Of a DNA stretch of 64,000 nt, positions 18,553 to 25,146 are shown piece after piece. Numbering within the stretch: the first letter of the stretch is position 1; each line of letters begins with the position of its first letter. The notes beneath the pieces are model-generated. The model made no database searches. It was given only the letters and a program-made list of their open reading frames with translations, and was not told the origin of the DNA. Position numbers and translations under genes: made by a program. The DNA is taken from assembly GCF_055900595.2 (NCBI RefSeq), contig NZ_CM148325.1; one strand, 5' to 3'.

Positions 18553-21426
18553 ATGACACAGACGTTAAGCCAGCTTGAAAACAGCGGCGCTTTTATTGAA
18601 CGCCATATCGGACCGGACGCCGCGCAACAGCAAGAAATGCTGAATGCCGTTGGCGCACAATCGTTAAACGCGCTGACCGGCCAGATTGTGCCGAAAGATA
18701 TTCAGCTTGCGATACCACCGCAGGTTGGCGCACCGGCGACCGAATACGCCGCGCTGGCGGAACTCAAGGCTATTGCCAGTCGCAATAAACGCTTCACGTC
18801 TTACATCGGCATGGGTTACACCGCCGTGCAGCTACCGCCGGTTATCCTGCGTAACATGCTGGAAAATCCGGGCTGGTATACCGCGTATACTCCGTATCAA
18901 CCTGAAGTCTCCCAGGGCCGCCTTGAAGCACTGCTCAACTTCCAGCAGGTAACGCTGGATTTGACCGGGCTGGATATGGCTTCGGCTTCTCTTCTTGACG
19001 AAGCCACTGCTGCTGCCGAAGCAATGGCGATGGCAAAACGCGTCAGTAAACTGAAAAATGCCAACCGCTTCTTCGTTGCTTCTGACGTGCATCCGCAAAC
19101 TTTAGATGTAGTACGTACACGCGCAGAAACCTTTGGTTTTGAAGTGATTGTCGATGATGCACAAAAAGTGCTCGATCACCAGGACGTCTTCGGCGTGCTG
19201 TTACAGCAGGTCGGCACTACCGGTGAAATTCACGACTACACTGCGCTTATCAGCGAACTGAAATCACGCAAAATTGTAGTCAGCGTCGCCGCCGATATTA
19301 TGGCGCTGGTGCTGTTAACTGCACCGGGTAAACAGGGCGCGGATATTGTCTTTGGTTCGGCGCAACGCTTTGGCGTACCGATGGGCTACGGTGGCCCACA
19401 TGCGGCATTCTTTGCAGCGAAAGATGAATACAAACGCTCAATGCCGGGCCGTATTATTGGCGTATCGAAAGATGCCGCGGGCAATACTGCGCTGCGCATG
19501 GCGATGCAGACTCGCGAGCAACATATTCGCCGTGAGAAAGCGAACTCCAACATTTGTACTTCCCAGGTACTGCTGGCTAACATCGCCAGCCTGTATGCCG
19601 TTTATCACGGTCCGGTTGGCCTGAAACGTATCGCTAACCGCATCCACCGTCTGACCGATATCCTGGCTGCAGGTCTGCAACAAAAAGGTCAGAAGCTGCG
19701 CCATGCGCACTATTTCGATACTTTGTGTGTGGAAGTGGCCGACAAAGCGGGCGTGCTGGCGCGTGCCGAAGCGGCTGAAATCAACCTGCGTAGCGATATT
19801 CTGAATGCGGTGGGGATCACCCTTGATGAAACCACCACGCGCGAAAACGTGATGCAGCTTTTCAGCGTACTGCTGGGCGATAATCACGGACTGGACATCG
19901 ACACGCTGGACAAAGACGTGGCTCACGACAGCCGTTCTATTCAGCCTGCAATGCTGCGCGATGACGAAATTCTCACCCATCCGGTGTTTAATCGCTACCA
20001 CAGCGAAACCGAAATGATGCGCTATATGCACTCGCTGGAGCGTAAAGATCTGGCGCTGAATCAGGCGATGATCCCGCTGGGTTCCTGCACCATGAAACTG
20101 AACGCCGCCGCCGAGATGATCCCAATCACCTGGCCGGAATTTGCCGAACTGCACCCGTTCTGCCCGCCGGAACAGGCCGAAGGTTATCAGCAGATGATCG
20201 CCCAACTGGCTGACTGGCTGGTGAAACTGACCGGTTACGACGCCGTCTGTATGCAGCCGAACTCTGGCGCTCAGGGCGAATACGCGGGGCTGCTGGCGAT
20301 TCGTCATTATCATGAAAGCCGCAACGAAGGGCATCGCGATATCTGCCTGATCCCGGCTTCTGCGCATGGCACTAACCCGGCTTCCGCGCATATGGCAGGA
20401 ATGCAGGTGGTGGTTGTGGCGTGTGATAAAAACGGCAACATCGATCTGACTGACCTGCGCGCGAAAGCGGAGCAGGCGGGCGATAATCTCTCCTGCATTA
20501 TGGTGACCTATCCTTCCACCCACGGCGTGTACGAAGAAACGATCCGTGAAGTGTGTGAAATCGTGCATAAGTTCGGCGGTCAGGTTTACCTTGATGGCGC
20601 GAACATGAACGCCCAGGTTGGCATCACTTCGCCGGGCTTTATTGGCGCGGACGTTTCGCACCTTAACCTGCATAAAACTTTCTGCATTCCGCACGGCGGT
20701 GGTGGTCCGGGTATGGGACCGATCGGCGTGAAAGCGCATTTGGCACCGTTTGTTCCGGGTCATAGCGTGGTGCAAATCGAAGGCATGTTAACCCGTCAGG
20801 GCGCGGTTTCTGCGGCACCGTTCGGTAGCGCTTCTATTCTGCCAATTAGCTGGATGTACATCCGCATGATGGGCGCAGAAGGGCTGAAAAAAGCAAGCCA
20901 GGTGGCAATCCTCAACGCCAACTATATTGCCAGCCGCCTGCAGGATGCTTTCCCGGTGCTGTATACCGGTCGCGACGGTCGCGTGGCGCATGAATGTATT
21001 CTTGATATTCGTCCGTTGAAAGAAGAAACCGGCATCAGCGAGCTGGATATTGCCAAGCGCCTGATCGACTATGGTTTCCACGCGCCGACTATGTCGTTCC
21101 CGGTGGCGGGGACGCTGATGGTTGAACCGACTGAATCTGAAAGCAAAGTGGAACTGGATCGCTTTATTGATGCGATGCTGTCTATCCGCGCAGAAATCGA
21201 CCAGGTGAAAGCCGGTGTTTGGCCGCTGGAAGATAACCCGCTGGTGAACGCGCCGCACATTCAGAGCGAACTGGTCGCCGAGTGGGCGCATCCGTACAGC
21301 CGTGAAGTTGCAGTATTCCCGGCAGGCGTGGCAGACAAATACTGGCCAACAGTGAAACGTCTGGATGATGTTTACGGCGACCGTAACCTGTTCTGCTCCT
21401 GCGTACCGATTAGCGAATACCAGTAA
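18553..21426 (+). CDS. gcvP: glycine dehydrogenase (decarboxylating), P protein
   Basis: ATG at 18553 preceded by aggaa; 957 aa beginning [21 protein letters not shown]; the 5' part of ORF 18469..21426 is a GTG-initiated extension through the structured spacer. Confidence 0.92.
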
Positions 21427-21492
21427 TTTACTGATTCGACTATCTTCTAAAGGCGCTTCGGCGCCTTTGACACTGATGTCAAACTCAACATT

Positions 21493-21591
21493 GCCTGATG
21501 CACCTCGTTTATCAGGCCTACATAGTCTGTGCAATGTATTGAATTTGCACGATCTTGTAGGCTGGATAAGGCGTTCACGCCGCATCCGGCA
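21493..21591. repeat. BIME: two inverted REP units
   Basis: gcctgatgcacctcgtttatcaggcctaca and tgtaggctggataaggcgttcacgccgcatccggca match the REP consensus in opposite orientations. Confidence 0.65.
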
Positions 21592-21621
21592 TAATAAAAG
21601 CACTTTGTCATCAATAATTTG

Positions 21622-21649
21622 AAAGGCGCTTCGGCGCCTTTATTTTTTT
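21622..21649 (+). terminator. rho-independent terminator immediately upstream of the ygfF ribosome-binding site
   Basis: aaaggcgcttcggcgccttt stem followed by attttttt; the same 20-nt palindrome occurs at 21449-21468 without a T-run. Confidence 0.5.
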
Positions 21650-21659
21650 AGGAAAACAA

Positions 21660-22403
21660 ATGACTATAGCACTTGTGACCGGTGGCAGTCGCGGCATCGG
21701 GCGGGCAACTGCATTACTGTTGGCGCAAGAAGGGTATACGGTGGCGGTTAATTATCAGCAAAACCTCCACGCGGCGCAGGAAGTGGTGAAGTTAATCACG
21801 CAAGCCGGTGGCAAGGCATTCGTGCTTCAGGCGGATATCAGCGACGAAAATCAGGTCATCGCAATGTTTACAGCAATCGATCAGCACGATGAACCGCTAG
21901 CCGCGCTGGTCAATAACGCCGGGATCTTGTTTACCCAGTGCACCGTAGAAAACCTTACCGCAGAGCGAATCAACCGGGTACTTTCCACCAATGTGACGGG
22001 ATATTTTCTCTGTTGCCGCGAGGCGGTAAAACGCATGGCGCTTAAAAATGGCGGTAATGGCGGTGCTATCGTCAACGTCTCGTCAGTGGCCTCACGGCTG
22101 GGATCGCCGGGAGAATACGTTGACTATGCGGCATCGAAAGGGGCGATTGATACGTTAACCACCGGACTATCGCTGGAAGTCGCCGCGCAGGGGATCCGCG
22201 TTAACGGCGTGCGGCCAGGGTTTATTTATACCGAAATGCACGCCAGCGGTGGCGAGCCTGGACGCGTTGATCGCGTTAAGTCGAACATCCCCATGCAGCG
22301 TGGCGGACAGGCGGAAGAGGTCGCGCAGGCCATCGTCTGGCTGTTAAGTGATAAAGCCTCTTATGTTACGGGAAGTTTTATCGATTTGGCGGGCGGGAAA
22401 TAA
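21660..22403 (+). CDS. ygfF: short-chain dehydrogenase/reductase (NADP-dependent)
   Basis: 247-aa ORF with the SDR motifs TGGSRGIG and YxxxK. Confidence 0.85.
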   Translation: MTIALVTGGSRGIGRATALLLAQEGYTVAVNYQQNLHAAQEVVKLITQAGGKAFVLQADISDENQVIAMFTAIDQHDEPLAALVNNAGILFTQCTVENLTAERINRVLSTNVTGYFLCCREAVKRMALKNGGNGGAIVNVSSVASRLGSPGEYVDYAASKGAIDTLTTGLSLEVAAQGIRVNGVRPGFIYTEMHASGGEPGRVDRVKSNIPMQRGGQAEEVAQAIVWLLSDKASYVTGSFIDLAGGK

Positions 22404-24414: not shown

Positions 24415-25077
<663 letters not shown>

Positions 25078-25088
25078 TTGGTGCGCCG

Positions 25089-25146
25089 TTGTAGGCATGA
25101 TAAGACGCGTCAGCGTCGCATCAGGCGATAAATGCCTGATGCGATA
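25089..25146. repeat. REP element between convergent yqfA and ygfZ
   Basis: gtaggcatgataagacgcgtcagcgtcgcatcaggcg plus a partial second unit gcctgatgcg. Confidence 0.55.

What the first reader, a model, noticed from the sequence alone, without database searches (positions are those of the whole stretch)
21449..21660. Two identical 20-nt GC palindromes bracket a BIME between gcvP and ygfF; the second forms a terminator 10 nt before the ygfF ribosome-binding site
aaaggcgcttcggcgccttt occurs at 21449-21468 and again at 21622-21641, 173 bp apart, flanking two inverted REP units. Only the second copy is followed by a T-run. This looks like a duplicated terminator stem around a REP insertion and leaves no room for a ygfF promoter, so ygfF expression may depend on read-through or attenuation.
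Basis: seen in the sequence. Interest (0 to 1): 0.3.

Follow-up and report, generated by a model that had tools for sequence, protein, structure and literature searches.

The report
Mobile repeat duplicated the gcvP terminator
A 153-bp mobile repeat (BIME-1) inserted at the hairpin that ends the gcvP gene and copied the whole hairpin onto both of its sides, and the same signature at many other sites gives a concrete clue to how these abundant bacterial repeats spread.

Summary
AAAGGCGCTTCGGCGCCTTT occurs at 21449-21468 and 21622-21641, and only the second copy is followed by a T-run.

The 153 bp between the copies is a complete BIME-1 (RIP/RIB) element: A motif, Y REP, IHF-type linker, Z1 REP, B motif. 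The 20-mer is not part of that element. It is the gcvP terminator hairpin, duplicated.

- Three E. coli genomes carry the exact empty site: one hairpin, then the T-run and the ygfF ribosome-binding site.
- Two other BIME-1 loci show the same precise presence/absence, each with its own hairpin.
- Of 67 independent BIME-1 loci, 28 have locus-specific flanking repeats, against 0.5% of controls. The junctions are fixed, and the repeat is usually one whole hairpin of 16-31 nt.

The intact allele is rare (8 of 5,426 genomes). The K-12 allele looks like a decayed derivative that has lost the second hairpin. A cryptic Escherichia species carries two tandem units.

I infer insertion at the feet of an extruded hairpin. 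This leaves copy 1 without a U-tract and copy 2 as the working terminator.

The attenuation idea is not supported. The lack of room for a promoter is real but predates the insertion. I could not read the 1990s BIME papers, so the general rule may not be new.

The parts
18553..21426 (+). gcvP coding sequence (glycine decarboxylase); stop codon at 21424-21426
   Evidence: The ORF ends at 21426. Identical or near-identical E. coli sequence is annotated gcvP, 2874 nt. The start coordinate is inferred from that length.
21449..21468 (+). Hairpin copy 1 (H1): the original position of the gcvP terminator stem-loop, now separated from its U-tract
   Evidence: Exact 20-mer. 8-bp stem with UUCG loop, -14.2 kcal/mol. 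Followed by GACACTG, not by a T-run. Present as the only copy in K-12, CFT073, O157 and the empty-site strains.
21469..21492 (.). BIME-1 outer 'A' motif (left end of the inserted element; imperfect terminal inverted repeat with the B motif)
   Evidence: Matches the consensus GAGACTGATGACAAACGCAAAATT of 64 loci. The flanking repeat ends exactly 24 nt before the Y REP in most loci. A/B inverted-repeat alignment.
21493..21521 (.). Y-type REP (palindromic unit)
   Evidence: Sequence read; profile match; pattern match.
21522..21556 (.). L linker with an IHF-type site (ATTCAATACATTG on the minus strand, 21532-21544)
   Evidence: One mismatch to WATCAANNNNTTR, the same as in the family consensus. The Rfam ES036/CssrF model matches 21514-21556 on the minus strand.
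21557..21590 (.). Z1-type REP, inverted relative to the Y REP
   Evidence: Sequence read; profile match.
21591..21621 (.). BIME-1 outer 'B' motif (right end of the inserted element)
   Evidence: Matches the consensus ATGAACAAAGCGCACTTTGTCAGCAATCTGA. The flanking repeat starts about 30 nt after the Z1 REP in most loci.
21622..21641 (+). Hairpin copy 2 (H2): the duplicated terminator stem-loop, still attached to the U-tract
   Evidence: Exact 20-mer; -13.3 kcal/mol; the only terminator-like site in the spacer.
21642..21649 (+). A followed by T7: the U-tract of the gcvP intrinsic terminator
   Evidence: Sequence read; terminator scan. It directly follows the single hairpin in the empty-site allele.
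21650..22403 (+). ygfF Shine-Dalgarno (AGGA, 21650-21653) and coding sequence (21660-22403; SDR-family oxidoreductase)
   Evidence: ORF; RefSeq annotation of matching sequence.

Best explanation
The two 20-nt palindromes are a target duplication. A 153-bp BIME-1 (RIP/RIB) element, made of A motif, Y REP, IHF-type linker, Z1 REP and B motif, inserted at the intrinsic-terminator hairpin downstream of gcvP. The whole hairpin ended up on both sides of the element.

Shown:
- The element has fixed ends.
- The repeat is locus-specific and is exactly one hairpin.
- Exact empty sites exist at this locus and at two others.
- The same architecture recurs at a large fraction of BIME-1 loci in several Escherichia and Pseudocitrobacter genomes.

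Inferred (about 45% for this specific mechanism): the two strand transfers occurred at the two feet of the hairpin, probably extruded as a cruciform or on single-stranded DNA. Gap repair then copied the entire stem-loop. This would explain why the duplication length (16-31 nt) follows the size of the target hairpin rather than being constant.

Consequences (inferred):
- Copy 1 lost its U-tract and is now only a stable 3'-UTR hairpin.
- Copy 2 kept the U7 tract and is the working gcvP terminator. Termination is therefore preserved, and the BIME-1 sits inside the gcvP 3' UTR.
- The 20-bp repeats allow precise loss of the element and tandem amplification of the unit.
- ygfF, whose ATG lies 18 nt after copy 2, can only be reached by read-through in this allele, as in the empty-site allele.
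- In the common K-12-type allele copy 2 has decayed.
For: This locus:
- The exact repeat has 0 chance expectation. The element matches a 64-locus BIME-1 profile at E=3e-42 over positions 4-149 of 153.
- Three E. coli genomes have ...ttctAAAGGCGCTTCGGCGCCTTTATTTTTTTAGGAAAACAAATG with one hairpin and no BIME.
- The occupied allele is in 8 genomes, plus 1 with IS621 inside it.

Other loci with their own hairpins:
- The prohibitin/tkt spacer has GGGCCGCTTTCGCGGCCC on both sides; the site is empty in IAI39.
- The yddM/fdnI spacer is empty in strain 2/0, has one unit in 14EC033 and two tandem units with three hairpins in K-12.

Survey of 67 distinct solo loci:
- A flanking repeat scoring >=14 was found in 28, against 0.5% of 4422 mismatched-flank controls.
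- Junctions lie 24 nt before the Y REP and 30 nt after the Z1 REP.
- In 16 of 17 precise-junction loci the repeat is a hairpin from end to end, 16-31 nt long.
- T-runs follow the right copy in 15 of 28 loci and A-runs precede the left copy in 16 of 28.
- 18 of the 39 loci without a repeat still have a hairpin abutting one canonical end, against 1.5-3% at control positions.

Age of the insertion:
- Escherichia sp. E1V33 has hairpin-element-hairpin-element-hairpin at gcvP-ygfF.
- The K-12 spacer keeps A-motif (p=0.001) and B-motif (p<0.0004) remnants. Exactly 20 nt then follow, 12 of 20 identical to the hairpin, before the same T-run.
Against: - No enzyme is identified. Published TnpA_REP (RAYT) cleavage sites lie inside REPs and linkers, not at the A/B ends, and IS200/IS605-type transposition makes no target duplication (PMC3333891, PMC2817692).
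- 39 of the 67 surveyed loci show no clear repeat. I attribute this to decay, but some may never have had one.
- The survey pattern selects well-conserved elements in a few genomes.
- At this locus the empty sites nest within the occupied haplogroup: ygfF is 99.2% identical to an occupied allele, against 92% to E1V33. They are therefore probably secondary precise deletions rather than the ancestral state.
- Terminator activity of copy 2 and the lack of it at copy 1 are predicted, not measured.
Confidence: 0.7

Rival explanations
1. The structure is the same (hairpin-element-hairpin), but no transposase was involved. A DNA polymerase stalled at the terminator hairpin and switched template to another BIME-1 copy, using the T/A shoulder microhomology. 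It copied the element, then switched back across the base of the hairpin and copied the hairpin a second time.
For: The duplicated segments usually begin with A(A) and end with T(T), and the element ends abut these shoulders, which is what microhomology-guided switching needs. Duplication length equals hairpin length, as expected if the hairpin base defines the re-entry point. No transposase with matching ends is known. Hairpin-promoted slippage is established knowledge for palindrome deletion.
Against: The element boundaries are very precise across many loci (24 and 30 nt). The imperfect terminal inverted repeats look like recognition ends of a mobile element. Two consecutive accurate switches between distant loci would have to recur dozens of times.
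Confidence: 0.2
2. The duplicated palindromes are maintained as a regulatory device. Pairing of copy 1 with copy 2 competes with the copy 2 terminator hairpin and sets the level of read-through into ygfF (attenuation).
For: In the full-length RNA, the lowest-energy fold pairs copy 1 with copy 2 and closes a giant BIME hairpin: -83.8 kcal/mol, z = -6.9. ygfF has no room for its own promoter after copy 2.
Against: Stepwise folding keeps copy 1 as a local UUCG hairpin until copy 2 is complete. The long-range form is only about 3 kcal/mol better than two local hairpins. The same hairpin-element-hairpin layout occurs between convergent genes and at dozens of unrelated loci. The allele is rare, 8 of 5,426 genomes, and the empty site has the same terminator-RBS adjacency. 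No sensing element is evident.
Confidence: 0.07
3. The 20-mer belongs to the canonical BIME/REP repeat unit or to another repeat family, so its two copies are simply parts of the repeat.
For: The BIME-1 element is itself nearly palindromic, and its ends abut the 20-mers without any gap.
Against: Other BIME-1 copies carry different, locus-specific hairpins at the same positions. The 153-nt family consensus stops at the A and B motifs. The 20-mer with its flank occurs at one place per genome. It is present as a single copy without a BIME in empty-site strains.
Confidence: 0.02
4. The terminator hairpin was first duplicated in tandem for unrelated reasons, and the BIME-1 later landed between the two copies.
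For: None directly. Tandem hairpins with BIMEs between them do exist in arrays.
Against: No allele with two adjacent hairpins and no BIME was seen at any of the three loci examined; empty sites have exactly one hairpin. It would require the same two-step coincidence at more than 28 loci with identical junction spacing.
Confidence: 0.02

Closest known systems
BIME-1 / RIP / RIB elements of E. coli (Y and Z1 palindromic units, L linker with IHF site, A and B outer motifs; at 3' ends of transcription units)
   Same: Same composition, order, length (153 bp) and sequence (profile E=3e-42). IHF-type site in the linker. Extragenic position after a gene. Present or absent as a whole between strains, as summarised for BIME-1 in PMC1187871, which cites Bachellier et al. 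1997.
   Different: None of the papers I could read describes the feature stressed here: duplication of the complete target terminator hairpin with fixed junctions. The original 1990s papers are not in the library, so prior description cannot be excluded.
REPINs mobilised by RAYT / TnpA_REP (IS200/IS605-like Y1 HUH transposases)
   Same: Two inverted REPs with a spacer, non-autonomous, hundreds of copies, single-strand hairpin-forming (PMC3116915, PMC3337134, PMC3333891).
   Different: IS200/IS605-type transposition makes no target duplication (PMC2817692). The mapped TnpA_REP cleavage sites lie within iREPs and linkers, not at the A/B ends (PMC3333891). Here a 16-31 nt, structure-sized duplication flanks the element.
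Miniature inverted-repeat transposable elements (MITEs), e.g. ERIC or Correia
   Same: Small, non-coding, with imperfect terminal inverted repeats, flanked by direct repeats of target sequence, polymorphic between strains.
   Different: MITE target duplications have a fixed short length set by the transposase (PMC3184786). Here the length varies with the target hairpin, and the target is a structure (a terminator stem-loop), not a sequence.
CRISPR spacer integration by Cas1-Cas2 with IHF (mechanistic analogy only)
   Same: Staggered attacks at the two borders of a palindromic repeat, followed by gap filling, duplicate the whole repeat on both sides of the insert. In vitro, Cas1-Cas2 also integrates next to a cruciform-prone inverted repeat and needs supercoiled target DNA. 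IHF is a cofactor in E. coli (PMC5389526).
   Different: The insert here is a 153-bp repeat element, not a 33-bp prespacer. The targets are many different terminators, not a CRISPR array. No involvement of Cas proteins was tested or is implied.
Mobile elements that home to terminators or REP hairpins (group IIC introns after intrinsic terminators; IS1397, IS621 into REPs)
   Same: They use extragenic stem-loops as safe landing sites. IS621 is seen inside this very BIME-1 in one strain.
   Different: From general knowledge, those elements insert beside or inside the hairpin with no duplication or one of 2-4 bp. They do not regenerate a complete second hairpin.

Membership tests
BIME-1 (RIP/RIB) | One Y and one Z1 palindromic unit in inverted orientation | tested here: met
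   Y REP at 21493-21521 and Z1 REP at 21557-21590. nhmmer gives 132.6 bits, E=3e-42, against a profile of 64 BIME-1 loci.
BIME-1 (RIP/RIB) | Long L linker carrying an IHF consensus site | tested here: met
   35-nt linker. ATTCAATACATTG (minus strand, 21532-21544) has 1 mismatch to WATCAANNNNTTR, the same as the family consensus. IHF binding itself cannot be tested here.
BIME-1 (RIP/RIB) | Conserved outer motifs (A, B) flanking the two units | tested here: met
   21469-21492 and 21591-21621 align to the consensus ends.
BIME-1 (RIP/RIB) | Extragenic, at the 3' end of a transcription unit | tested here: met
   Lies 43 nt after the gcvP stop codon, between gcvP and ygfF.
Intrinsic (Rho-independent) terminator | GC-rich stem-loop immediately followed by a U-tract | tested here: met
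   Copy 2: 8-bp stem, UUCG loop, -13.3 kcal/mol, then AUUUUUUU. Copy 1 has the stem but no U-tract, so copy 1 alone does not meet this feature.
Intrinsic (Rho-independent) terminator | RNA 3' ends formed at the U-tract in vivo or in vitro | not testable with these tools
   No 3'-end data exist for this allele.
MITE (non-autonomous DDE-type transposon) | Terminal inverted repeats | tested here: inconclusive
   The A motif and the reverse complement of the B motif share a core, (A)GA(C/T)TG(A/C)TGACAAA. The match is imperfect, and weaker in the window copy.
MITE (non-autonomous DDE-type transposon) | Target-site duplication of fixed short length | tested here: not met
   A duplication is present but measures 16-31 nt and equals the target hairpin.
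MITE (non-autonomous DDE-type transposon) | A related autonomous IS with the same ends | not tested
   I did not search for an IS with these ends.
REPIN mobilised by RAYT (IS200/IS605-like) | Two inverted REPs able to form one long hairpin | tested here: met
   In the predicted fold the Y and Z1 REPs and the A and B motifs pair.
REPIN mobilised by RAYT (IS200/IS605-like) | Insertion without target duplication, next to a short guide-matched target | tested here: not met
   A whole-hairpin duplication flanks the element here and at 28 of 67 loci.
Transcription attenuator controlling ygfF | Mutually exclusive terminator and anti-terminator structures with a kinetic route to the anti-terminator | tested here: inconclusive
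   A copy1:copy2 duplex exists thermodynamically (-83.3 against -80.4 kcal/mol), but it is not predicted at any co-transcriptional intermediate. No sensor is evident.

The most novel reading that the evidence does not exclude
BIME-1 is a structure-homing mobile element. It is integrated by staggered strand transfer at the two feet of an extruded terminator cruciform, by an enzyme not yet assigned (not the mapped RAYT reaction). The topology is that of CRISPR spacer integration, possibly helped by the element's own IHF site. Each insertion therefore regenerates the terminator it lands in. This would explain both how these repeats spread harmlessly to 3' ends of genes and why they form tandem arrays.
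Probability: 0.35. Interest if true: 0.75.

Novelty: new variant of a known kind. Interest (0 to 1): 0.5.

Why it matters
How REP/BIME elements move has been open since the 1980s, and the current RAYT model predicts no target duplication. Three things found here give a sharp, testable constraint on the mechanism:
- defined element ends;
- a structural target, the terminator hairpin;
- a duplication whose length equals the hairpin, with exact empty sites.

Together they also give a simple reason why these repeats accumulate at 3' ends of genes without breaking termination.

For this locus, it explains a four-state polymorphism in E. coli: empty site, intact BIME-1, decayed K-12 form, and ygfF absent. 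It also identifies natural strain pairs in which terminator read-through into ygfF can be measured.

Tried and rejected
- Chance repeat: rejected.
- The 20-mer as part of the BIME unit: rejected.
- A ygfF promoter in the spacer: only one 9/12 sigma-70 match (TTGAAA-16-TATTTT, 21619-21646) overlapping copy 2, with 1.5 expected by chance. It would start inside or after the Shine-Dalgarno sequence. The K-12 spacer gave none, although in-vitro RNA polymerase binding is reported there (PMC3946193, PMC8743547).
- Attenuation through copy1:copy2 pairing: not supported kinetically.
- Rfam: only repeat-derived 'sRNA' families were hit, ES036 and naRNA4, which adds nothing.
- An nhmmer search of the K-12 spacer with the whole-element profile found nothing. 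The remnants became significant only in motif-level alignments with shuffles. The decayed second hairpin in K-12 is not significant on its own (p=0.48) and rests on position and exact length.
- Literature: nine searches and several papers gave no description of hairpin duplication. Bachellier 1997, Gilson 1991 and Boccard & Prentki 1993 are not held.
- The MG1655 record shows no repeat features at either locus I checked.
- I did not use the protein, structure or metagenome tools, because nothing here turned on them.

Full report
**Observation.** The 20-mer AAAGGCGCTTCGGCGCCTTT is at 21449-21468 and 21622-21641 and nowhere else in the window, even with three mismatches allowed; none was expected by chance. 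It lies between the gcvP stop codon (21426) and the ygfF ATG (21660). Gene names come from RefSeq records with identical or near-identical sequence. Each copy folds into an 8-bp stem with a UUCG loop, at -14.2 and -13.3 kcal/mol. Only copy 2 is followed by a T-run (A then T7), and it is the only terminator-like site in the spacer.

**What lies between the copies.** The 153 bp at 21469-21621 is a complete BIME-1 element:
- a 24-nt outer motif;
- a Y REP;
- a 35-nt linker with an IHF-type site;
- a Z1 REP;
- a 31-nt outer motif.

A profile built from 64 other loci matches it at E=3e-42. The family consensus is also 153 nt and stops exactly where the 20-mers begin.

**The key lead.** A similarity search with the spacer found weaker matches at other E. 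coli loci that started exactly at the first palindrome. Reading them showed the same layout with different palindromes. GGGCCGCTTTCGCGGCCC lies on both sides of the BIME-1 in the prohibitin/tkt spacer. AAATGGCGC..GCGCCATTT lies on both sides in the yddM/fdnI spacer. So the flanking palindrome is locus-specific and is not part of the repeat.

**Survey.** One scan of species-representative genomes with a BIME-1 core pattern returned 120 loci, mostly from Escherichia and Pseudocitrobacter genomes.
- They reduced to 67 distinct solo elements. Of these, 28 have a flanking direct repeat with a local alignment score of at least 14, against 0.5% of 4422 controls that pair the left flank of one locus with the right flank of another.
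- The junctions are fixed. The repeat ends 24 nt before the Y REP and restarts 30 nt after the Z1 REP.
- In 16 of 17 precise-junction loci the duplicated segment is a hairpin from end to end, 16-31 nt long, usually with A...T shoulders.
- T-runs follow the right copy in 15 of 28 loci and A-runs precede the left copy in 16 of 28. The targets therefore look like terminators, and there is no orientation bias.
- Of the 39 loci without a repeat, 18 still have a hairpin abutting exactly one canonical end, against 1.5-3% at control positions. This fits decay of one copy.

**Empty sites.** A synthetic query that joins the left flank, one hairpin and the right flank matched three E. coli genomes in a single piece. 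Their sequence reads ...ttctAAAGGCGCTTCGGCGCCTTTATTTTTTTAGGAAAACAAATG. The same test found exact empty sites at the tkt locus (IAI39) and at the yddM/fdnI locus. It also found alleles with two tandem units; K-12 has three hairpins and two BIME-1 at yddM/fdnI.

**Population and history at this locus.**
- The intact allele is in 8 of 5,426 complete genomes, plus one where IS621 sits in its Y REP.
- The K-12-type spacer is in 3,010 genomes.
- About 2,370 genomes lack ygfF altogether.
- The K-12 spacer keeps an A-motif remnant directly after the hairpin (p=0.001) and a full B motif (p<0.0004). Exactly 20 nt follow, 12 of 20 identical to the hairpin, and then the same T-run and ribosome-binding site. 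That stretch no longer folds (-0.7 kcal/mol), and a G-rich boxC-type repeat replaces the REP core.
- Escherichia sp. E1V33, a separate species, has hairpin-element-hairpin-element-hairpin at the same place.
- ygfF of the empty allele is 99.2% identical to an occupied allele but about 92% identical to E1V33.
- I therefore infer an old insertion, decay in the K-12 lineage, and recent precise loss between the 20-bp repeats in the three empty strains. Recombination between lineages could blur this order.

**Mechanism.** The element has defined ends, the target is a hairpin, the duplication is the hairpin, and the event is reversible; these points are shown. I infer that the two strand joinings happen at the two feet of the extruded hairpin and that gap repair copies the stem-loop. 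I put about 45% on this mechanism.
- The nearest known reaction with this topology is Cas1-Cas2 spacer integration at the borders of a palindromic repeat. In vitro it also targets a cruciform-prone inverted repeat, and in E. coli it uses IHF (PMC5389526). This is an analogy, not a claim of involvement.
- The main rival is polymerase template switching across the hairpin base.
- The RAYT model does not predict a duplication, and its mapped cleavage sites are elsewhere (PMC3333891, PMC2817692).

**Consequences for expression.** Copy 1 has lost its U-tract. Copy 2 keeps it, so termination should now occur after the BIME-1, which becomes part of the gcvP 3' UTR. The ygfF ATG lies 18 nt after copy 2, and no better-than-chance promoter is present. 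The empty site has the same adjacency, so the BIME did not create this situation. Attenuation through pairing of the two copies is thermodynamically possible but not predicted along the transcription path. For K-12, in-vitro RNA polymerase binding in its different spacer is reported (PMC3946193, PMC8743547), and RegulonDB, as quoted in PMC5100583, treats ygfF as its own transcription unit. None of this transfers to the window allele.

**Novelty.** None of the accessible papers on REPs, BIMEs, REPINs or RAYTs mentions duplication of the target hairpin. The paper that reported 'excisions of a whole BIME-1' (Bachellier et al. 1997, abstract recalled from memory) and the RIB/RIP papers could not be read. 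The locus itself is an ordinary member of a known family. The general rule looks like an undescribed or forgotten property, so I rate it a new variant of a known kind with moderate interest.

Noticed in passing
L008 150-260 and 1480-1520 (E. coli 2017-02-2CC; corresponds to window about 21519): An IS621 (IS110-family) copy sits inside the Y REP of this same BIME-1. The junctions read tatcaggcct|IS...IS|ctacatag, so the CT core is repeated. This is a natural example of the known REP targeting by this element.
   Followed up: partly
L002 2700-2845 (CFT073); also L003, L004: About 2,370 of 5,425 E. coli genomes lack ygfF. In them the single gcvP hairpin is followed by a degenerate BIME-1 in the opposite orientation (nhmmer E=4e-15) that runs up to the bglA stop codon. 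This suggests a second, independent insertion at the same hairpin.
   Followed up: partly
L001 1720-1900 (K-12 gcvP-ygfF spacer): A pair of G-rich boxC-type repeats (called hairpin-G-quadruplex elements in PMC5100583) occupies the place of the REP core of the old BIME-1. This spacer type is in 3,010 genomes.
   Followed up: partly
L133 250-650; L089 1700-2070; L022; L124; L125; L112; L098: There are tandem arrays whose repeating unit is one BIME-1 plus one copy of the local hairpin (2 to more than 6 units). This fits unequal exchange between the duplicated hairpins. Other arrays (L126, L127, L108, L117) have units of about 115 nt with no hairpin and fused outer motifs.
   Followed up: no
window 21514-21556 (minus strand): Rfam family RF02751 (ES036/CssrF 'sRNA') matches the BIME-1 linker above its gathering score. 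The family appears to model this repeat rather than a distinct gene.
   Followed up: no
L097 (261-nt contig labelled Methylobacterium frigidaeris): A tiny contig carries an enterobacterial BIME-1. It is probably contamination in that assembly.
   Followed up: no
L130 1590-1600 (E. coli 18KM2445): In this K-12-type allele the ygfF start codon reads TTG instead of ATG.
   Followed up: no
window 25077-25103 (minus strand): There is a partial Y-REP-like match (3 mismatches to the BIME-1 core pattern) further downstream in the window. I did not examine it.
   Followed up: no
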